64,000 nucleotides of DNA from Patescibacteria group bacterium (lineage in GTDB: Bacteria > Patescibacteriota > Minisyncoccia > Ryanbacterales > GWA2-47-10b): positions 6,608 to 70,607 of the forward strand of contig JBBTQY010000015.1 in NCBI GenBank assembly GCA_038065475.1, given 5' to 3'. Each line of letters begins with the position of its first letter. The first letter of the stretch is position 1. Below, piece by piece: positions 7,401 to 25,803 of this stretch. The notes beneath the pieces were generated by a model. The model saw only the letters and a list, made by a program, of their open reading frames with translations, was not told where the DNA came from and did no database searches. Position numbers and translations under genes: made by a program.

Positions 7401-7812
7401 TGGTATATGACCACACCGATTCTTTACACTTGCGATTAAAAGGTTCGATACCGTATGCCTCAATGTCTTGCTTTAATTTAAAACCGAGCGCTTTCTCAAC
7501 GCCGATCTCGACAGGAAGGCCGTGAGTATCCCACCCAGCACGGCGCTCAACCAAAAACCCCTGCATAGTTTTATAACGCGCCACAACATCTTTAAATGCG
7601 CGCGCCTCCACATGATGCAGGCCCGGCATGCCATTTGCGGTAGGCGGCCCCTCAAAAAAAACAAAGCGCTTTGCTTTCCGCGCGCGCTGCCGAATACTCT
7701 TTTCAAAAATTTTTTTCTGGGTCCAAAATCCAAGGACTCCAAGCTCGTCTCGCATTTTTTTATCATAATCGAAATACCTCCCTCTTTCAATACCAAAACA
7801 AAATGCGCCCAT
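4453..7812 (-). CDS. ileS: Isoleucine--tRNA ligase carrying an embedded histidine-phosphatase-like domain
   Basis: The ORF is 1119 aa. Its N-terminus has the class-I HIGH-type region (PPTANGMPGLHH), and it contains TTPWT, WCWRC, a WTCKECG zinc knuckle, DVWFDSG and KMSKS. Residues about 485-668 (nt about 5809-6360) form an inserted domain with RHG, SSDLTRTRETA and VGHGD motifs. Confidence 0.9.
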   Translation of the reverse strand: MGAFCFGIERGRYFDYDKKMRDELGVLGFWTQKKIFEKSIRQRARKAKRFVFFEGPPTANGMPGLHHVEARAFKDVVARYKTMQGFLVERRAGWDTHGLPVEIGVEKALGFKLKQDIEAYGIEPFNRKCKESVWSYTNQWEKVTERMGYWLDTKDAYVTYKNSYIESLWWIVKEFASRKLLYQDDKVVPWCARCGTALSSHELAQGYKKVKDPSVYVRFRLKTRRASLLVWTTTPWTLPANVAAAVHPDLEYVTVDDRGEQLIVLGSLAAKLFPGLEPLWREPGSKLLGLEYDAPYPAPDIPYRVVSGTFITDQEGTGIVHIAPAFGDDDLKVGKREGLPTYVTVNDAGQFTDAVPQWRGIFVKEADPLIVKDLIQKGLLFKEALYEHDYPFCWRCDTPLIYRVRKSWWVKVSAVRPKMVEANKSINWHPQHLRDGRFGQWLREDKDWAFSRERYWGTPLPVWTCKECGHVDVIGSLAELTERAPKSSNTYYLMRHGFAKNNLLGIATAKLNDSYGLLPRGKTEVKKAAAGLKKAGIQLIVSSDLTRTRETAAILARELRVPVLFDADLREHNPGDYEGELVEDMWKKHTAEEILTHPFPGGESWADVKIRSHRFFQRLESLHKKKKILVVGHGDPLWFLEGIMRGMQQPDEISPAKYLKNADVHRVAPVAVPRNKLGETDLHKPFIDDFLVTCPGCLTKMDRTPEVADVWFDSGAMPFAAEHYPFENKERIDKGIAYPADFISEAIDQTRGWFYTLLAVSTLLGKKAPYKNVISLGHLLDKEGKKMSKSRGNVVEPMDLFEKYSADAVRWFFFTINQPGDSKLFDVSDLEKAKRNFIDLFLNTLNFYEMYKPVAKKTSRKNALDLWMEAKCALVSAEVTRRMDAYDVVGAARLIEDFVGNDISRWYVRRSRERMRSGEGVKVLRKTLLQTAILAAPFIPFTAEIVYRAAGGKRESVHLEDWPKKQTYNKALVAGMDEVRALAARGLELRARNGIKVRQPLGALFVKGMTLRDSSLLNILKEELNVKEITVNRKLTEDAALDLVITPTLKEEGEVRELIRFAQDARKKAGLLPLDTVVLVITGSFSPAALAVIKKGTRAKHLEVSDTNKGPSVVSVEKA
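5809..6360 (-). other. Histidine phosphatase (phosphoglycerate-mutase-like) domain inserted within IleS
   Basis: The segment LMRHGFAKNN ... SSDLTRTRETAAIL ... VVGHGDPLWFL matches the branch-1 histidine phosphatase signature ([LIVM]xRHG; SS.L.R...TA; .GHG). It lies between the CKECG zinc knuckle and the CPGC/DVWFDSG region. Confidence 0.6.
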
Positions 7813-10885: not shown

Positions 10886-11240
10886 GGGAGTGACAGGCCT
10901 CGACGGGGTCTCGACTCTTTGAAAATCAGGCAAGAGCAGGTGTGGTCACCTCTTTCAAAAATGCCACACGCCAATAAGTGCAAACTTATTTAACCGCCAG
11001 CCGGCGATGGCTTTTGCCTAAGCCGCAGGCGTTTCTCTAGCCACTACGTGCTAGAGCATCGGTCCGCAACCGCTAGGTGCGTGGAATGCCGGTGTTATAA
11101 TCCCTAGCTAGTGCGCACTATGCTCGATACCCGCGCGCGAAACTAATCGAGCAAACTCTCTTGCTTCGTGCTTGAGTACGCCTGTATAAATTTTTATTGA
11201 GAAGAACTTTCGGACGGCGGTTCGATTCCGCCCACTTCCA
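10886..11240 (+). ncRNA. ssrA: tmRNA (SsrA), standard one-piece form
   Basis: The 5' end GGGAGTGACAGGCCTCGACGGGG resembles the E. coli tmRNA 5' end. The 3' end ...GGACGGCGGTTCGATTCCGCCCACTTCCA forms a tRNA-like T-arm and a 7-bp acceptor stem with the 5' strand (GGGAGTG/CACTTCC, one G-U pair). The resume context TAAGT-GCA-AAC at 10980 is followed by an in-frame 13-codon tag ORF ending TAA at 11019-11021. CCA is not encoded. Confidence 0.75.
10980..11021 (+). other. tmRNA tag-peptide reading frame, with predicted tag (A)ANLFNRQPAMAFA
   Basis: The frame GCA AAC TTA TTT AAC CGC CAG CCG GCG ATG GCT TTT GCC TAA lies downstream of a UAAGU resume context analogous to E. coli UAGUC-GCA-AAC. Confidence 0.5.
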
Positions 11241-11293
11241 CTGAAATAGTTCGTTTACAACCGACAACGCAGCTAACCTTGTAGGAGAATCAA

Positions 11294-22757: not shown

Positions 22758-23019
22758 AGCGTATATGTATAGTATAGCGCGCGTAAAAGTTTTCCACAGT
22801 GAGACGTATCATAAAAAAATTTTACGCCTTATACTTATACCAGATCCTAAGAGCATCGAAATTCAGAGAAGAGCGAGGCCAGCGTAATGGTCACCACCGA
22901 CATTGACACTCACGTGTCACCACCACACCTCTCCCTTCCTTGCAGTTTTCCTGCTCCACGCAACTTGCACAATTTTCTCTTCGCACATGGCCCGTCCTCA
23001 CAGACGGGCCCGAATGCTT

Positions 23020-24027
23020 TTATACCAAATTTTTATTTATAAAATTTTCAATCCTTCCTTTAAGTTTCTGAGTGTTACCATGGCTTATCATTCCTAAATA
23101 TGACTGTATTGTTTCTCTTTTATGGTGACTCGCATTGATACCACGAAATATTCTCTTTTTTGTAGTCGTTCTCAATACTCGGTAATCGGGGAAATGCGTC
23201 CAGCCGAGGAAATCGACACCCGATGCAAAAGTAGTTATTGATACCTTATCAGGATGTAATTGGAGTTTCAATCGCTCCTGTAAAAAATTGCTAATATGAT
23301 TCAAAATATTTTCAAGCCATTCTTTATTTTGCGATAGGATAACAAAATCATCAGCATATCGGATATAATATTCAGCTTTTAGTTTATGTTTCATAAACTG
23401 ATCAAACTCGTTCATATAAATATTTACGAGAAGCTGACTCGTGAGATTACCGAGCGGCAAACCAACGCCTATTCGTGTTGAGTGAAAGCTGGACACAACA
23501 TGCGAGACGAGCCGAACAACGTCTTTGTCAAAAATATACCCATCGACGATTTCCAAAAGTATTTTTTGATCTATCGAGGCAAAAAACTTTCGGATATCGC
23601 ATTTAAGAACCCAGACTGTTTTGGTATGATTTTTTGATACTCTTCCGGCAAAAGCGCGAAACCCGTTCATCGCCCTATGCGTTCCTTTGCCTTTCCTACA
23701 TGAATATGAATCAGCGACAAATGTTTTATCAAAAAATGGATAGAGCGCCCTATATAAAACGTGATGCAACAGTCTGTCTCGAACACATGCCTTGTGAATA
23801 TTGCGAGGTTTTGGATCGGAAATATTAAACGCGTGGTACCCTCCATGCCTGTATGTTTTGTTTTTCAAATCGTCGTGGAGAGATTGTATGTTATCCGATA
23901 ATCTATACCGAAACGCCTGAACATCTTTTCTGTTCCTTTTGCCCTTCAAAAACTCCCGCCAAGCCGCAAGCAAATTTTCTTTGGAAATGATATCATCGTA
24001 CGTATGAATAAATTGCTTGCGACCCAT
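23020..24027 (-). CDS. Diversity-generating retroelement (DGR) reverse transcriptase
   Basis: The ORF is 335 aa. It has RT motifs, including YADDFVIL, and a motif-4 variant LPLGNLTSQLLVNIY ([I/L]GxxxSQ), which is characteristic of DGR RTs rather than group II intron or retron RTs. It has no maturase/X domain. A TR/VR pair lies 0.4-1 kb away. Confidence 0.8.
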   Translation of the reverse strand: MGRKQFIHTYDDIISKENLLAAWREFLKGKRNRKDVQAFRYRLSDNIQSLHDDLKNKTYRHGGYHAFNISDPKPRNIHKACVRDRLLHHVLYRALYPFFDKTFVADSYSCRKGKGTHRAMNGFRAFAGRVSKNHTKTVWVLKCDIRKFFASIDQKILLEIVDGYIFDKDVVRLVSHVVSSFHSTRIGVGLPLGNLTSQLLVNIYMNEFDQFMKHKLKAEYYIRYADDFVILSQNKEWLENILNHISNFLQERLKLQLHPDKVSITTFASGVDFLGWTHFPDYRVLRTTTKKRIFRGINASHHKRETIQSYLGMISHGNTQKLKGRIENFINKNLV

Positions 24028-24424
24028 ACTCCTGAAAGTACCCCCCCCCCGCCCAACTTCGCAACCAAAACTGATCCCGGTTGTCTTAAAACTAAAAGAC
24101 GCCTACGGACTTTGGCAAAAATATCTTGCTGACTTTCCCAAACAAAATCGCTACACACTCGGCTCTAAAATAGATGATTTATTTCTTACGTCCATTGAGT
24201 ATTGTTTTTTAGCGAGCTACGCATCAAAAGATACAAAGATTGGACTTCTTGATCGAGCTATCTCTCGAGTAGATCTTCTAAAGCTTCTTTTGCAACTGGC
24301 ATGGGAAGTACGCGCACTCGATAGCAAAAAATATGTACATCTTGGTGAACGTCTTGTAGAAGTTGGGAGAATGTTGGGCGGTTGGAGAAAGGGCTTACTA
24401 TCAAAAACTCCCACCTCGAAGTAA
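24017..24424 (+). CDS. avd: DGR accessory variability determinant (Avd-like four-helix-bundle protein), encoded on the strand opposite to the RT, TR and target gene
   Basis: The segment ...LKDAYGLWQKYLADFPKQNRYTLGSKIDDL...LGERLVEVGRMLGGWRK matches the Avd / 23S-IVS four-helix-bundle pattern (cf. Bordetella phage Avd ...IAEVGRILGSWIA). Only a TTG start (24017) is in frame. A C10 tract at 24041-24050 lies inside its 5' end. Confidence 0.6.
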   Translation: MRPILLKVPPPRPTSQPKLIPVVLKLKDAYGLWQKYLADFPKQNRYTLGSKIDDLFLTSIEYCFLASYASKDTKIGLLDRAISRVDLLKLLLQLAWEVRALDSKKYVHLGERLVEVGRMLGGWRKGLLSKTPTSK

Positions 24425-24438
24425 GGCGGGAGAAACGC

Positions 24439-24556
24439 GGGAGTTGCTTGAGAAAACACGATTGCCGGCATTCCAGCGATTGTCGTTCTGCGGGTTGGCG
24501 TTCACGTTCCACTTCTCGTCGTCGGAGTTCCAGTTGACGTTGACCGTGAAGATCTC
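24439..24556 (-). repeat. DGR template repeat (TR)
   Basis: An approximately 117-nt segment is near-identical to the VR at 24948-25064. All of the roughly 22-25 mismatches have T on the plus strand (= A on the minus strand) in the TR, against various bases in the VR. A 2-nt indel sits near the 5' end. Confidence 0.8.
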
Positions 24557-24914
24557 GGTTGTAATGTGGCCACCATCATCTTTACCACCGCCCATCGAAT
24601 ACTCTCCGGGTTGTATCAAACATGGGACATCGAAGTCCGCCAATGGTAGCCACCAACTGCTGTTGTTTTTTAAGAATACGCTAAACATACTCTCGCAAAA
24701 GCCGTAGCCTTGACAATCCTGATGCTTAGTATATTAAAGCCCTCTGCCCAAGCCGTAACCGGAGCAATACAAAAACTTCATTATCTAGATTAGCAAAAAT
24801 TATAAAAACAGAGAATAAATCAGTATAACAAAAACGGTCCCCTGAACCCTTCGGCATGCGCCAAAGAGTCCAAGGGACCGAGAGCCCAAGTGCGCAAGGG
24901 CTCTGTTGCGAGGA

Positions 24915-25565
24915 TCAGCCCGCCTGCGCTGAAGCTTCGGCGGGCAAGCAGTTGCTGGAGAAAACACGATAGCCGGCAACCCAGCGACGGTCGAGCCGCG
25001 GGTAGGCGCGCACGCACCACTCCCCGCCGTCGGAGTTCCAGCGGACGCTGACCGCGAAGACCTCGGCGTTGACCCCACGAACATAGAAGATGTTCGCGTA
25101 ACCGTTTGCGAGGAGCGCGCCTGCGCGACCTTTCGGCTGGCGCAAAATCATGCCTGCGAGGTAGGCCGAGAATGCGAAGGCGTTCTCGAAGACGTGATGC
25201 TCGGGAAGCTCTCTCCTGATCTCCGCGTCGTTTGCGGGCTTTGCGAGATCGAACGAGATGGCCTTTATCGCAGGAAGCGACTCGACTGGCCTTGCGGCCG
25301 GGAGAATCCGGTCTCGAAAACCGTCCCACACGTAAAGACTTTCGCGCGTCTTGTAGAATGCGGCCGGGTCGAAGGCATCGGGACGGGCGGGGAGGGTGAT
25401 CTCACCCACGCGCGCCAACCTCTTGACCATGTTGACCACCCACTCCCCTGCATTGACGCGGCGAACCGCCTCGTTGGGATCGGTGATGCCCATCTGCGCC
25501 ATGAGGTTCTTGACGAGCGCGTTAAGTCTCCCAGGCAGGACGTCACTGATTGCGAAGTCTGACAT
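24915..25565 (-). CDS. DGR target protein. Its C-terminal region is likely a C-type-lectin / FGE-like fold carrying the VR. No signal peptide is evident.
   Basis: The ORF is 216 aa with an AAGGAG RBS 8 nt upstream. Its last 49 codons hold the VR. It is GC-rich (unlike the RT and avd). The final 9 codons form a GC hairpin. Confidence 0.7.
   Translation of the reverse strand: MSDFAISDVLPGRLNALVKNLMAQMGITDPNEAVRRVNAGEWVVNMVKRLARVGEITLPARPDAFDPAAFYKTRESLYVWDGFRDRILPAARPVESLPAIKAISFDLAKPANDAEIRRELPEHHVFENAFAFSAYLAGMILRQPKGRAGALLANGYANIFYVRGVNAEVFAVSVRWNSDGGEWCVRAYPRLDRRWVAGYRVFSSNCLPAEASAQAG
24918..24945 (-). other. GC-rich hairpin immediately 3' of the VR (candidate DGR homing hairpin/cruciform)
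   Basis: GCCCGCC-(14 nt, containing the palindrome GAAGCTTC)-GGCGGGC. It overlaps the last 9 codons and abuts the stop codon. Confidence 0.4.
24948..25064 (-). repeat. DGR variable repeat (VR) at the 3' end of the target gene
   Basis: The VR encodes EVFAVSVRWNSDGGEWCVRAYPRLDRRWVAGYRVFSSNC. The TR-encoded counterpart is EIFTVNVNWNSDDEKWNVNANPQNDNRWNAGNRVFSSNS. The TR AAY (Asn) codons fall at the variable positions. Confidence 0.8.
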
Positions 25566-25633
25566 GATAGGTCTCCTTAGGCTTAGTTGCCCTTTCTCTC
25601 GACACCTCTCATCCGAGGCAGGAGCGTGACCGG

Positions 25634-25687
25634 CATAGTCACAGCCATAAAATACCGGGCATCCAGAATCTTATGGCTGTGACTATG
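25634..25687. promoter_or_regulatory. 17-bp perfect inverted repeat with a 20-nt loop, between udg and the DGR target gene
   Basis: catagtcacagccataa ... ttatggctgtgactatg. It is not followed by a U-run on either strand, so it looks like an operator or 5'-UTR structure rather than a terminator. Confidence 0.3.
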
Positions 25688-25803
25688 ATTTCAAGCAAAT
25701 ACTGCAAGTTAAAAAAGGAACTGCTTGCCTAGTGTACTATATTTGTCTGTATTTGTCAATACCCCGCTCCGCCTTATTTCTATCGTCTTTTCTTTACTAC
25801 TCA

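What the first reader, a model, noticed from the sequence alone, without database searches (positions are those of the whole stretch)
23020..25565. Complete diversity-generating retroelement (DGR): RT, Avd, TR and a VR-bearing target gene
The RT has the DGR-specific motif-4 variant (LGNLTSQ) and YADD. A 117-nt TR (24439-24556) and VR (24948-25064) differ at about 22-25 positions. At every one of these, the TR carries A on the coding (minus) strand and the VR carries another base. This is the signature of adenine-directed mutagenic retrohoming. The VR diversifies the last roughly 40 codons of a 216-aa protein whose C-terminus looks like a C-type-lectin / FGE fold (...GALLANGYANIFYV...VRWNSDGGEW...). 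No signal peptide is visible, so the diversified protein may act intracellularly.
Basis: partly seen in the sequence, partly recalled or inferred. Interest (0 to 1): 0.75.

Follow-up and report, generated by a model that had tools for sequence, protein, structure and literature searches.

The report
Typical CPR-bacterium diversity-generating retroelement
This is a genuine, complete diversity-generating retroelement of the type already known to be common in tiny groundwater (CPR/Patescibacteria) bacteria, so it is ordinary in itself. Comparing it with about 80 relatives showed a conserved, slippage-prone run of C/G bases at the start of its helper gene avd that may switch the mutator on and off.

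Summary
TR (24442-24558, minus strand) and VR (24950-25066) are 117 nt long and differ at 22 positions. Every one of these is an A in the TR (P about 1.6e-15).

The RT has LGNLTSQ and YADD, and its closest solved structure is the Bordetella phage DGR RT. Avd is present but lies on the opposite strand. This is the "TR-(avd)-RT" architecture B3 that Wu et al. report for 90% of CPR DGRs. Nearly all of the 80 related loci I fetched share the layout. The host is a Patescibacteria MAG from Hainich groundwater.

The element is therefore a new member of a known kind.

Additional observations:
- A poly-G/C run (C10 at 24041-24050) lies between the divergent avd and RT genes in 68 of 79 relatives. In this window it puts avd out of frame with its conserved ATG.
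- A roughly 230-nt covarying structured RNA leader precedes the TR.
- An Avd-binding-type stem-loop follows the TR.
- The target genes have a systematically high GC3.

Whether the element is currently active could not be tested.

The parts
23020..24027 (-). DGR reverse transcriptase gene (335 aa). LGNLTSQ at residues 192-198, YADD at 224-227.
   Evidence: ORF. Pfam RVT_1, 95 bits. Best solved relative is bRT 8ub7, E 1.6e-43. Motif positions. AGGAG lies 2 nt upstream of the ATG.
24004..24424 (+). avd accessory gene, divergent from RT and overlapping its first codons. As assembled the Avd frame is open from TTG 24017 (135 aa). The conserved ATG at 24004-24006 is out of frame with it.
   Evidence: Pfam bAvd 51 bits, above the cut-off of 40. 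NCBIfam DivGenRetAVD 64 bits, below the cut-off of 80. NCBI names it a four helix bundle protein, P0172. Frame simulation.
24041..24050 (.). C10 run on the avd strand, which is G10 on the RT strand. It lies 13 nt upstream of the RT ATG and 37 nt downstream of the conserved avd ATG. It is a candidate slippage or phase-variation tract.
   Evidence: Present in 68 of 79 related loci. Runs of 8 or more: 65 at this site against 7 elsewhere in 620 kb.
24403..24432 (-). Stem-loop of 10 bp (CTCCCGCCTT/GAGGTGGGAG), then a TTTTT run. It starts 10 nt after the TR. It is the counterpart of the Avd-binding stem-loop of the Bordetella DGR RNA and may also act as a terminator.
   Evidence: terminator-like site; 58 of 63 loci have a hairpin plus T-run here; compensatory pair types at stem positions 4-10. 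Handa et al. bioRxiv 10.1101/2023.10.23.563531, section 10.
24442..24558 (-). Template repeat (TR), 117 nt, with 34 adenines.
24559..24795 (-). 5' leader of the predicted TR RNA. It begins with extended -10-like boxes (TGCTAATCT 24795-24787; also TGTTATACT 24830-24822 and TATAAT 24804-24799). Six covarying helices follow: H1 24766-24745, H2 24728-24683, H3 24716-24693, H4 24653-24642 with 24577-24566, H5 24638-24625, H6 24611-24590.
   Evidence: the motif occurs 232-244 nt before the TR in most of 44 of 63 loci; 47 pairs, 41 with compensatory changes, 95.6% of cells paired, 0 of 500 shuffles as good; window coordinates. No Rfam hit.
24830..24880 (-). Intrinsic-terminator-like hairpin (20 pairs) plus T-run, 35 nt after the target stop codon.
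   Evidence: 62 of 63 loci have a hairpin of -10 kcal/mol or stronger within 120 nt after the VR, and 39 of those are followed by a T-run.
24861..24900 (-). Degenerate CTTGG / CTTTGG / CTCGG-type short repeats (period about 8-9 nt) between the target stop and the terminator loop. Function unknown.
   Evidence: 1.67 per 100 nt against a background of 0.18 across 63 loci.
24918..24945 (-). GC-rich 7-bp inverted repeat (GCCCGCC...GGCGGGC), 5 nt after the end of VR homology and inside the last codons. It is a possible counterpart of the IMH-adjacent hairpin.
   Evidence: Read from the sequence. The DNA fold is no better than shuffles, z = +1.0.
24950..25066 (-). Variable repeat (VR), covering codons 167-205 of the target. 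22 codons can vary.
24915..25565 (-). Target gene (216 aa; NCBI AAB367_04210, hypothetical protein). It has a conserved N-terminal two-helix motif, a middle domain and a C-terminal VR-bearing lectin-like domain.
25731..25759 (-). Sigma-70-like promoter candidate for the target gene (TTGACA-17-TACACT, 10 of 12 matches).
   Evidence: This is a consensus match only.

Best explanation
The region is a complete, chromosomally encoded diversity-generating retroelement (DGR). It belongs to the lineage restricted to Patescibacteria (CPR): architecture B3 of Wu et al. 2018 and clade 2 of Roux et al. 2021. The host is a Patescibacteria MAG from Hainich groundwater.

WHAT THE SEQUENCE SHOWS. The locus appears to be organised as four transcription units.
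1. The target gene, with its own promoter-like site and a strong terminator.
2. A TR RNA of about 390 nt. It begins at extended -10-type boxes just after that terminator. It comprises a roughly 230-nt structured leader, the 117-nt TR, a 10-nt linker and a 10-bp stem-loop followed by a U-run.
3. avd, on the opposite strand.
4. RT, divergent from avd, with their 5' ends overlapping.

INFERRED MECHANISM, by analogy with the Bordetella phage BPP-1 DGR.
- The RT-Avd complex binds the structured TR RNA.
- It primes in cis and copies the TR into cDNA, misincorporating at the 34 template adenines.
- The cDNA replaces the VR and recodes up to 22 codons (168-205) of a 216-aa protein. In theory this allows about 3e19 protein variants.

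The VR has been rewritten at least once, and recently relative to neutral drift: 22 of the 34 A sites are changed and 0 of the 83 other sites.

FURTHER INFERENCE (about 40% likely). avd expression, and therefore mutagenesis, is gated by the length of the C10 run at 24041-24050. The conserved avd ATG (24004) is out of frame with C10, but would give a full 139- or 140-aa Avd with C9 or C12. If so, the sequenced consensus is in an OFF or low state.
For: TR/VR SIGNATURE. (P about 1.6e-15). AAY codon design and adenines at codon positions 1 and 2.

RT..

AVD..

ARCHITECTURE. The same VR - about 450-500 nt - TR - (avd reversed) - RT layout is found in nearly all of 80 related loci from GTDB species representatives. 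402 loci matched in total. Wu et al. state that B3 accounts for 90% of CPR DGRs.

HOST AND CONTEXT.. The neighbours are housekeeping genes: PolX, NUDIX, UDG, an amino-acid permease, L20 and IF3.

TR RNA ELEMENTS.
- Promoter-like box at a fixed distance from the TR.
- Leader with 41 of 47 covarying pairs.
- Stem-loop plus U-run in 58 of 63 loci, with compensatory changes. This matches the Avd-binding stem-loop predicted for 207 of 278 DGRs by Handa et al..
- Target terminator.

GATING BY THE RUN.
- The run is present in 68 of 79 loci, and 65 of 72 G/C runs of 8 or more lie at this site.
- The RT His8 codon is CAT (which reads ATG on the antisense strand) in 45 of 49 loci, against 62% elsewhere in RT.
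- Many database Avds begin M....H....TPPP..QPKLIPVV.
- The ATG is in frame with the Avd body in only 7 of 43 loci.
- A (GA)n microsatellite replaces the run in 4 loci of the same subclade.
- Run length differs between near-identical loci: G11 against G9, and G8 against G9.
- The window's frames are simulated.
- The gene callers that produced the L001 and L004 annotations did not call avd.
Against: ACTIVITY NOT SHOWN. Four assemblies of this population carry an identical VR. The 90%-identity protein cluster has a single member. A degenerate VR pattern found nothing in the JGI metagenome contigs. No reads were available.

IMH-LIKE ELEMENT POORLY DEFINED. The 7-bp inverted repeat after the VR folds no better than shuffled sequence.

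MECHANISM TRANSFERRED, NOT TESTED. Priming and cDNA integration are carried over from the Bordetella system. If the U-run after the stem-loop really terminates the TR RNA, the downstream priming region used by the Bordetella RNA would be missing.

AGAINST THE GATING IDEA.
- An in-frame TTG (24017) exists in the window, and NCBI annotates it as the start.
- About 40 of 66 loci have an in-frame TTG, GTG or ATG 3-17 nt after the run, which could be the real start.
- The CAT bias is weaker against the local 5' AT-richness (P = 0.002).
- Homopolymer lengths in short-read assemblies can be wrong.
- Poly(G) and (GA)n are both homopurine tracts, so they could share a structural rather than a slippage role.
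Confidence: 0.9

Rival explanations
1. The element is complete in sequence but is not diversifying at present. It is either a phase-OFF or a recently silenced DGR, and the VR-TR differences record past homing only.
For: The VR is identical in four assemblies, and the protein cluster has a single member. The conserved avd ATG is out of frame with C10, giving a 42-aa product. Avd is essential for cDNA synthesis in the Bordetella system (Handa et al.).
Against: RT, the Avd body, the TR, the leader helices and the stem-loop are all intact. None of the 83 non-A positions differs, which argues for homing that is recent relative to neutral drift. An in-frame TTG start exists at 24017. Assemblies report only consensus sequence and hide minor alleles.
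Confidence: 0.45
2. The poly-G/C run is not a switch. It is a fixed cis element, for example the spacer or upstream element of the RT promoter, a 5'-UTR element, or a homopurine structural tract. Avd is then translated from a start codon at or after the run (TTG, GTG or a non-canonical codon).
For: In 27 of 67 loci the run is followed directly by TAnnnT, and in 17 of those the RT ATG lies exactly 7 nt further on. This looks like a -10 box for a nearly leaderless RT mRNA. About 40 of 66 loci have an in-frame TTG, GTG or ATG 3-17 nt after the run. Poly(G) and the (GA)n that replaces it are both homopurine tracts.
Against: Run length ranges from 7 to 14 and is not a multiple of 3. Length differs between loci with identical flanks. 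The ATG-leader-PPP form is a real, full-length Avd in many genomes. The antisense ATG is favoured over the synonymous alternative in 45 of 49 loci. The window and L004 have no canonical start after the run.
Confidence: 0.4
3. The diversified protein is exported or displayed on the cell surface by a route that needs no classical signal peptide. The conserved N-terminal two-helix motif might act as a docking or export signal. The protein would then bind external ligands, as most DGR targets do, rather than acting inside the cell.
For: Roux et al. report that most cellular DGR targets are membrane-anchored binders of extracellular substrates. The N-terminal motif (LPGKLNALVKN..DPNEAVRRVNSGEW, and the related GQxEAxxNKLGGxEGxxRFLRGE) is shared by targets whose middle domains differ. 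This is what one would expect of a targeting or docking module.
Against: There is no hydrophobic segment: the maximum Kyte-Doolittle value over 19 residues is 0.94, and over 11 residues it is 0.96 within the first 50 residues. No secretion-related domain was detected. No secretion genes are adjacent.
Confidence: 0.4
4. The repeat is an ordinary partial gene duplication, or the RT belongs to another class (group II intron, retron or defence RT), and the A bias is coincidental.
For: The best NCBIfam match for the RT is the group II intron RT/maturase model, at 160 bits and far below its cut-off of 300.
Against: P is about 1.6e-15 for 22 of 22 mismatches falling on A. The closest solved relative is bRT, with the SQ motif aligned. 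An Avd gene is adjacent. No intron or retron RNA family was found in Rfam. About 60 related loci show the same A bias.
Confidence: 0.01

Closest known systems
CPR/Patescibacteria DGRs: architecture B3 'TR-(avd)-RT' (Wu et al. 2018, PMC5758913); DGR clade 2 (Roux et al. 2021, PMC8144416); first described by Paul et al. 2017
   Same: The gene order and orientation match (target-VR, TR, reversed avd, RT). The host phylum, groundwater habitat and chromosomal location match. The target is small and has no recognisable domain, transmembrane segment or signal peptide.
   Different: Nothing essential differs, so this is a member of the group. Several features documented here were not found in the papers I could read: the homopolymer in avd, the structured leader, the CTTGG-type repeats and the high GC3 of the target genes. 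Paul et al. 2017 was not available, so prior description cannot be excluded.
Bordetella phage BPP-1 DGR (mtd-avd-TR-brt), the mechanistic prototype
   Same: The RT is homologous (8ub7, E 1.6e-43) with the I/LGxxxSQ motif. An Avd is present. The TR-to-VR differences are adenine-specific. The VR lies at the C-terminus of a lectin-like domain. A stem-loop sits just 3' of the TR, where the Avd-binding stem-loop lies in the Bordetella RNA.
   Different: - Here avd is on the opposite strand, between the TR and RT. Any RNA 3' of the stem-loop would therefore be antisense to avd.
- A U-run follows the stem-loop.
- The upstream RNA is a 230-nt non-coding structured leader rather than the 3' end of avd.
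- The target is a small cellular protein, not a phage tail fibre.
- A GC-rich hairpin next to the VR is not clearly present.
C-type-lectin-fold DGR variable proteins (Mtd, TvpA 2y3c, archaeal AvpA; FGE-sulfatase-type domains)
Simple-sequence contingency loci: homopolymer or short-repeat tracts in promoters or 5' coding regions, as in Neisseria porA/opc and lgt genes, Bordetella fim genes and Haemophilus hif (from my own knowledge of these systems)
   Same: A G/C homopolymer of 7-14 nt, or a dinucleotide repeat in one subclade, lies just after a start codon and between divergent genes. Its length varies between close relatives, and the assembled frames are mixed.
   Different: No within-population length variation and no expression data are available. 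The gene under control would be a mutator accessory factor rather than a surface antigen. I found no report of this for DGRs.

Membership tests
Diversity-generating retroelement (DGR) | Reverse transcriptase of the DGR clade, with the motif-4 signature (I/L/V)GxxxSQ and the catalytic YxDD | tested here: met
   LGNLTSQ at residues 192-198 and YADD at 224-227. The best solved relative is the Bordetella DGR RT 8ub7, E 1.6e-43, with GSLTSQ aligned to GNLTSQ. Group II intron and retron RTs score E 1e-21 or worse.
Diversity-generating retroelement (DGR) | A TR/VR repeat pair whose differences are confined to TR adenines | tested here: met
   117 nt, with 22 of 22 mismatches at TR adenines and 0 of 83 non-A positions changed; P about 1.6e-15.
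Diversity-generating retroelement (DGR) | The VR lies inside a protein-coding gene, and TR adenines fall at codon positions 1 and 2 (AAY codons) | tested here: met
   The VR covers codons 167-205 of a 216-aa ORF. 33 of 34 adenines are at positions 1 or 2. There are 8 AAC and 3 AAT codons.
Diversity-generating retroelement (DGR) | An accessory variability determinant (Avd) is encoded in the cassette | tested here: met
   Pfam bAvd 51 bits, above the cut-off of 40. NCBIfam DivGenRetAVD E 1.2e-17, but 64 bits is below its cut-off of 80. Caveat: the conserved ATG is out of frame as assembled.
Diversity-generating retroelement (DGR) | IMH/IMH* difference at the 3' ends of the repeats, and a GC-rich inverted repeat after the VR | tested here: inconclusive
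   VR and TR diverge immediately after AGCAACT. A 7-bp GC inverted repeat lies 5 nt after the VR, but it folds no better than shuffles. A strong hairpin lies 70 nt downstream. Wu et al. find such repeats in only 34% of DGRs.
Diversity-generating retroelement (DGR) | Structured RNA around the TR, with an Avd-binding stem-loop just 3' of the TR | tested here: met
   A 10-bp stem-loop lies at 24432-24408. An equivalent is present in 58 of 63 relatives, with compensatory changes. It corresponds to the element predicted by Handa et al..
Diversity-generating retroelement (DGR) | Ongoing A-site hypervariability of the VR within a population | not testable with these tools
   No reads were available. 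Assembled alleles are identical in four assemblies. No variants were found in the protein cluster or in the JGI contigs.
CPR-type DGR, architecture B3 (Wu et al. 2018) | Core order TR - avd on the reverse strand - RT, in a CPR host | tested here: met
   Strands and order. Host is a Patescibacteria MAG. Definition.
C-type lectin fold variable protein | Significant structural similarity of the VR-bearing domain to C-type-lectin or FGE folds | tested here: inconclusive
Simple-sequence contingency (phase-variable) locus | A hypermutable repeat tract in the 5' coding region or promoter, whose length sets the reading frame or promoter spacing | tested here: met
   C10 lies between the conserved ATG and the Avd body. 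C9 or C12 is in frame and C10 is not. The tract is present in 68 of 79 loci, and (GA)n replaces it in 4.
Simple-sequence contingency (phase-variable) locus | Tract length polymorphism between closely related genomes | tested here: met
   3 of 6 locus pairs with flanks at least 85% identical differ in length. Examples: L014 G11 against L020 G9 with 100% identical flanks, and L074 G8 against L037/L049 G9. The sample is small, and assembly error is not excluded.
Simple-sequence contingency (phase-variable) locus | Length heterogeneity within a population, with ON/OFF expression | not testable with these tools
   The only hint is that one Logan contig (L002) ends immediately after the G10 run. No reads or expression data were available.

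The most novel reading that the evidence does not exclude
In this lineage of CPR DGRs the mutator may itself be under stochastic control. A slippage-prone homopolymer, or a (GA)n repeat in one subclade, sits between the avd start codon and the Avd body, and at the same time just upstream of the divergent RT gene. Replication or transcription slippage would then switch Avd on and off, and possibly RT as well. Targeted hypermutation would run only in a subpopulation of cells. In the sequenced consensus of this window (C10) the switch would be OFF.

Together with the roughly 230-nt covarying leader RNA, which is absent from Rfam, this would define regulatory and RNA components of CPR DGRs. I could not find either described.
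Probability: 0.35. Interest if true: 0.75.

Novelty: new member of a known kind. Interest (0 to 1): 0.42.

Why it matters
The DGR itself adds one more example to thousands already catalogued in CPR bacteria.

The comparison it prompted matters more. How DGR activity is regulated, and what RNA the reverse transcriptase recognises outside the Bordetella phage model, are open questions. The conserved homopolymer at the avd/RT junction gives a concrete hypothesis: a contingency switch on a mutator. It can be tested with existing metagenomic reads or with a handful of constructs. The covarying leader gives a defined RNA for biochemical work on CPR DGRs.

The target family has about 3,800 clusters at 50% identity, no annotation and no export signal. 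It is therefore a good test case for the published question of whether CPR DGR targets act inside the cell.

Tried and rejected
TARGET PROTEIN.
- Pfam and NCBIfam gave no hit. Scanning all 32 family members gave only scattered hits at E above 0.02.
- A profile search against PDB sequences gave nothing meaningful.
- Foldseek against PDB and BFVD gave nothing at E below 0.1.
- The AFDB50 library was unavailable.

RNA. Rfam at gathering thresholds on the whole window found only the tmRNA. Rfam at E up to 1 on 22800-25800 gave only a chance HgcG match.

VR VARIANTS.
- An exact-pattern scan of the JGI metagenome contigs, with N at the A sites, gave 0 hits. The Hainich data are probably not in that collection.
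- An exact-sequence look-up of the window's RT gave nothing on record. The ENA copy differs by one residue, F6C.

VR-ADJACENT HAIRPIN. It was tested as DNA and is no better than shuffles, so it is not claimed as a cruciform element.

WHOLE-TR-REGION RNA FOLD. Its energy is unexceptional, z = +0.8. Only comparative analysis revealed structure.

A-DEPLETION OF THE WHOLE TARGET GENE BY OFF-TEMPLATE MUTAGENESIS. Rejected as an explanation for its high GC. AT skew outside the VR is about 0 in the window and positive (median +0.14) across loci.

LITERATURE. Searches for DGR combined with homopolymer, poly-G or phase variation found no relevant report. Paul et al. 2017 (PMC5436926) and a 2026 preprint were not held. 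The Wu et al. supplements were not held.

Full report
OBSERVATION

A 117-nt direct repeat lies at 24442-24558 and 24950-25066. Read on the minus strand, the two copies differ at 22 positions. At every one the downstream copy (TR) has A and the upstream copy (VR) has G (12 times), C (5) or T (5). None of the 83 non-A positions differs, and homology ends sharply on both sides. With 34 A among 117 positions, the chance that 22 mismatches all fall on A is about 1.6e-15.

The VR covers codons 167-205 of the 216-aa ORF 24915-25565 (minus strand). 33 of the 34 TR adenines are at codon positions 1 or 2, and the TR contains 8 AAC and 3 AAT codons. This gives 4^34 possible DNA variants and about 3e19 protein variants. 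Otherwise the description holds.

RT AND AVD

The ORF 23020-24027 (minus strand, 335 aa) matches Pfam RVT_1. It contains LGNLTSQ (residues 192-198) and YADD (224-227). Its closest solved relative is the Bordetella phage DGR RT (8ub7, E 1.6e-43), with the SQ motif aligned. Group II intron and retron RTs score E 1e-21 or worse.

The accessory gene is on the opposite strand, at 24017-24424 (plus strand). It matches Pfam bAvd at 51 bits (cut-off 40) and NCBIfam DivGenRetAVD at 64 bits (cut-off 80). NCBI annotates it as a "four helix bundle protein".

In the direction of the target and RT, the order is therefore: target with VR, spacer, TR, reversed avd, RT. The 5' ends of avd and RT overlap.

HOST AND RELATIVES

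The target protein is identical to AAB367_04210 of a Patescibacteria-group MAG. The same locus occurs in ENA and Logan assemblies of Hainich groundwater samples. The neighbours are housekeeping genes: PolX, NUDIX, UDG, an amino-acid permease, a SLOG protein, L20 and IF3. The element is therefore chromosomal and not obviously viral.

A scan of GTDB species representatives with the RT found 402 related loci. I analysed the best 80.
- Nearly all have avd on the reverse strand directly upstream of RT, with the TR 14-60 nt beyond the avd stop.
- Nearly all have an A-biased VR 370-560 nt upstream of the TR.
- One relative, L004, sits at the same chromosomal position (NUDIX-L20-IF3) with a 78%-identical reversed avd.

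Wu et al. 2018 call this architecture B3, "TR-(avd)-RT". They state that it accounts for 90% of CPR DGRs and is nearly absent elsewhere. Roux et al. 2021 place such elements in a Patescibacteria-restricted clade 2. The element is thus a textbook member of a known lineage.

TARGET PROTEIN

- The protein has no Pfam, NCBIfam or PDB sequence match.
- It has no hydrophobic stretch that could be a signal peptide or transmembrane helix.
- Its family is large. A profile of 32 homologues finds 3,807 representative clusters at E 1e-3 or better, and 2,155 at 1e-10 or better. Almost all are 190-250 aa.
- Relatives share an N-terminal two-helix motif (FAIxEVLPGKLNALVKN..DPNEAVRRVNSGEW). A related motif (GQxEAxxNKLGGxEGxxRFLRGE) heads many other targets of sister DGRs whose middle domains differ.
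- The lectin-like fold is therefore plausible but not established.
- Roux et al. note that CPR targets typically lack membrane or other recognisable domains. They leave open whether these are genuine non-membrane-bound targets. This locus neither resolves nor contradicts that.

ORGANISATION OF THE LOCUS

Target transcription unit. The target gene has a sigma-70-like site upstream (25759-25731). A 20-pair hairpin with a T-run (24880-24830) lies 35 nt after its stop. 62 of 63 relatives have a comparable hairpin, and 39 of those are followed by a T-run.

TR RNA promoter. Immediately after that terminator come extended -10-like boxes. In 44 of 63 loci a TGnTAnnnT motif preceded by a T-run lies in the VR-to-TR spacer. 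Most are 232-244 nt upstream of the TR (median 239). In the window the motif is TGCTAATCT at 24795-24787, 237 nt from the TR.

Structured leader. The roughly 230 nt between this box and the TR form a conserved structured RNA.
- On 26 sequences, RNAalifold predicts 47 pairs in six helices, and 41 of them show compensatory changes.
- 95.6% of cells are paired. The figure is 73.5% in column shuffles and 38-51% when partners are slid by 1-3 columns. None of 500 shuffles reaches the observed covariation.
- Two helices cap similar UA(C/A)GG-containing loops.
- A 12-bp long-range helix (window 24653-24642 with 24577-24566) closes the domain 8 nt before the TR.
- Rfam has no match.

Stem-loop after the TR. 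Ten nucleotides after the TR lies a 10-bp stem-loop followed by a U-run (24432-24403). 58 of 63 relatives have one. It has a conserved C-G/U-A/C-G base and many compensatory pair types further up the stem. This matches the "Avd-binding stem-loop just downstream of TR" that Handa et al. predicted in 207 of 278 Avd-containing DGRs, CPR included.

MECHANISM

By analogy with the Bordetella system, RT-Avd would bind this RNA, prime in cis, copy the TR with misincorporation at adenines, and replace the VR with the resulting cDNA. These steps are inferred, not shown.

One difference is unresolved. If the U-run terminates the RNA, the downstream priming segment used in Bordetella would be absent. If transcription reads through, that segment is antisense to avd.

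HOMOPOLYMER AT THE avd/RT JUNCTION

This is the most interesting thing I saw.

Where it is.
- The window has C10 at 24041-24050 (G10 on the RT strand), 13 nt upstream of the RT ATG.
- A G run of 7-14 nt (mostly 9-11) lies 5-49 nt (mostly 11-49 nt) upstream of the RT start in 68 of 79 related loci.
- Of 72 G/C runs of 8 nt or more in 620 kb of these loci, 65 are at this site.

How it relates to the avd start.
- On the avd strand the run lies 2-3 codons before the conserved Avd body (..ILPVL..) and about 37 nt after an ATG.
- That ATG is the antisense of a conserved His codon of RT. The codon is CAT in 45 of 49 loci. CAT accounts for 62% of His codons elsewhere in these RT genes (P = 4.5e-6). 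Tested instead against the local 5' AT bias, P = 0.002.
- Where the ATG is in frame, it gives a 130-138-aa Avd beginning M..LN..H....TPPP..LPVL.
- Many database Avds of 137-148 aa have exactly this N-terminus.

Frames as assembled.
- The ATG is in frame in only 7 of 43 loci. 17 loci are off by one nucleotide and 19 by two.
- Gene callers often miss avd, for example in L001 and L004.
- In the window, C10 gives a 42-aa peptide from the ATG. C9 or C12 would give a 139- or 140-aa Avd. The only in-frame start is a TTG at 24017.

Signs that the tract is unstable.
- Four loci of the window's own subclade carry a (GA)n microsatellite right after ATG ATG instead of the C run. It encodes (ER)n and is in frame in all four.
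- Among six pairs of loci with near-identical flanks, three differ in run length: G11 against G9, and G8 against G9.
- One Logan contig of this very locus ends right after the run.

Interpretation. These are the hallmarks of a simple-sequence contingency tract. I therefore propose that avd expression, and with it mutagenesis, is gated by slippage. I rate this at roughly 35-40%.

Alternatives.
- In 27 of 67 loci the run is followed directly by TAnnnT, and in 17 of those the RT ATG lies 7 nt further on. The run could therefore be part of an RT promoter.
- Many loci have an in-frame TTG or GTG shortly after the run.
- Homopolymer lengths in short-read assemblies are imperfect.

I found no paper linking DGRs to such a tract. 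Paul et al. 2017 could not be read.

ACTIVITY

The VR has been rewritten, with 22 of 34 A sites changed and no drift at other sites. This argues for homing that is recent on an evolutionary scale.

However, four assemblies carry the same VR and differ from the window by a single SNP in RT. The 90% protein cluster has one member. A degenerate VR pattern found nothing in the JGI contigs. Without reads, current activity cannot be judged. An OFF-state avd would be consistent with a stable VR.

OTHER REGULARITIES

- The target gene is a GC island (about 61-62% GC against 49% for the window). It has the highest GC3 of 76 ORFs (0.76), while RT and avd are among the lowest (0.36-0.37).
- Across 61 loci, the target sequence upstream of the VR has a median GC3 of 0.66, against 0.37 for RT and 0.40 for avd. 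This is not A-specific depletion: AT skew is about 0 or positive.
- Between the target stop and the terminator loop lie degenerate CTTGG/CTTTGG-type repeats, at 1.67 per 100 nt against 0.18 background.

VERDICT

The finding is real and correctly interpreted. It is a new member of a well-described kind, and on its own is of modest interest. The conserved slippage-prone tract in avd and the covarying leader RNA are leads worth following. They can be tested with existing reads and simple constructs.

Noticed in passing
window 24041-24050 (and the same position in L004-L086): A poly-C/G run (C10 here; 7-14 nt in 68 of 79 related DGR loci) lies between the conserved avd ATG and the Avd body, 13 nt upstream of the divergent RT ATG. 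In most assemblies, including this one, the ATG is out of frame with the Avd body. A (GA)n repeat replaces the run in 4 loci. Run length differs between near-identical loci.
   Followed up: yes
window 24559-24795 (minus strand): A conserved structured RNA leader of about 230 nt lies between an extended -10-like box and the TR. It has six helices, and 41 of its 47 pairs show compensatory changes across 26 loci. It is not in Rfam.
   Followed up: yes
window 24403-24432 (minus strand): A 10-bp stem-loop plus U-run starts 10 nt after the TR and overlaps the last codons of the convergent avd. It is conserved in 58 of 63 loci with covariation. It probably corresponds to the Avd-binding stem-loop described for the Bordetella DGR RNA. 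Whether it also terminates transcription is open.
   Followed up: yes
window 24861-24900 (minus strand); the same position in most related loci: Degenerate short repeats (CTTGG, CTTTGG, CTCGG, CTTAG; period about 8-10 nt) fill the stretch between the target stop codon and the terminator loop. They are about 9-fold enriched over the rest of the loci. No function is known. They may act in target-site recognition or in the mRNA 3' end.
   Followed up: partly
window 24830-25640; targets in L007-L086: The target gene is a GC-rich island with the highest GC3 in the window (0.76), while RT and avd are among the lowest (about 0.37). In 54 of 61 related loci the target's GC3 outside the VR exceeds that of RT (medians 0.66 against 0.37). 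The shift is not strand-asymmetric A loss. It remains unexplained; possibilities include biased gene conversion, frequent transfer, or selection on expression.
   Followed up: partly
window 25634-25687 (minus strand): A perfect 17-bp inverted repeat (CATAGTCACAGCCATAA ... TTATGGCTGTGACTATG, 20-nt loop) lies in the putative 5' UTR of the target gene, between the promoter-like site and the ATG. No T-run follows it.
   Followed up: no
target N-terminus, window 25420-25565; proteins P0014-P0032; targets of L011, L017, L051, L054, L074 and others: A two-helix motif of about 40 residues (LPGKLNALVKN..DPNEAVRRVNSGEW, or GQxEAxxNKLGGxEGxxRFLRGE) heads many CPR DGR targets whose middle domains are unrelated. 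This suggests a shared docking or partner-binding module.
   Followed up: partly
P0033 (926 aa): One database protein carries five tandem matches to the target-family profile. Almost all other members are single-copy proteins of about 200-230 aa.
   Followed up: no
L005 and L006: Close homologues of the target (about 50% identity) occur in other genomes with no RT, avd or TR within 5 kb. These are orphan or remote targets, or remnants of lost DGRs.
   Followed up: partly
L014 (5009-5933) and L020 (6658-7582): A second A-biased TR/VR pair lies downstream of the RT in these two related loci. Extra G9-G10 runs occur nearby (L014 at 3404 and 5253; L020 at 5054 and 6902). This suggests a second cassette or target.
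   Followed up: no
L002, positions 7500-7526 (window about 24040-24066): The 29.9-kb Logan contig from ERR3858121 ends one base after the G10 run. This is compatible with read-level length heterogeneity or with poor read quality at the homopolymer.
   Followed up: partly
window 24011: This is the only difference between the window and the ENA assembly over 11.5 kb. It is a substitution in RT codon 6 (Phe to Cys).
   Followed up: partly
window 10886-11243 (plus strand): A tmRNA gene (Rfam RF00023, 87.9 bits) with the tag peptide ANLFNRQPAMAFA. It is the only Rfam family found in the window. ARAGORN found no tRNA genes in 64 kb.
   Followed up: no
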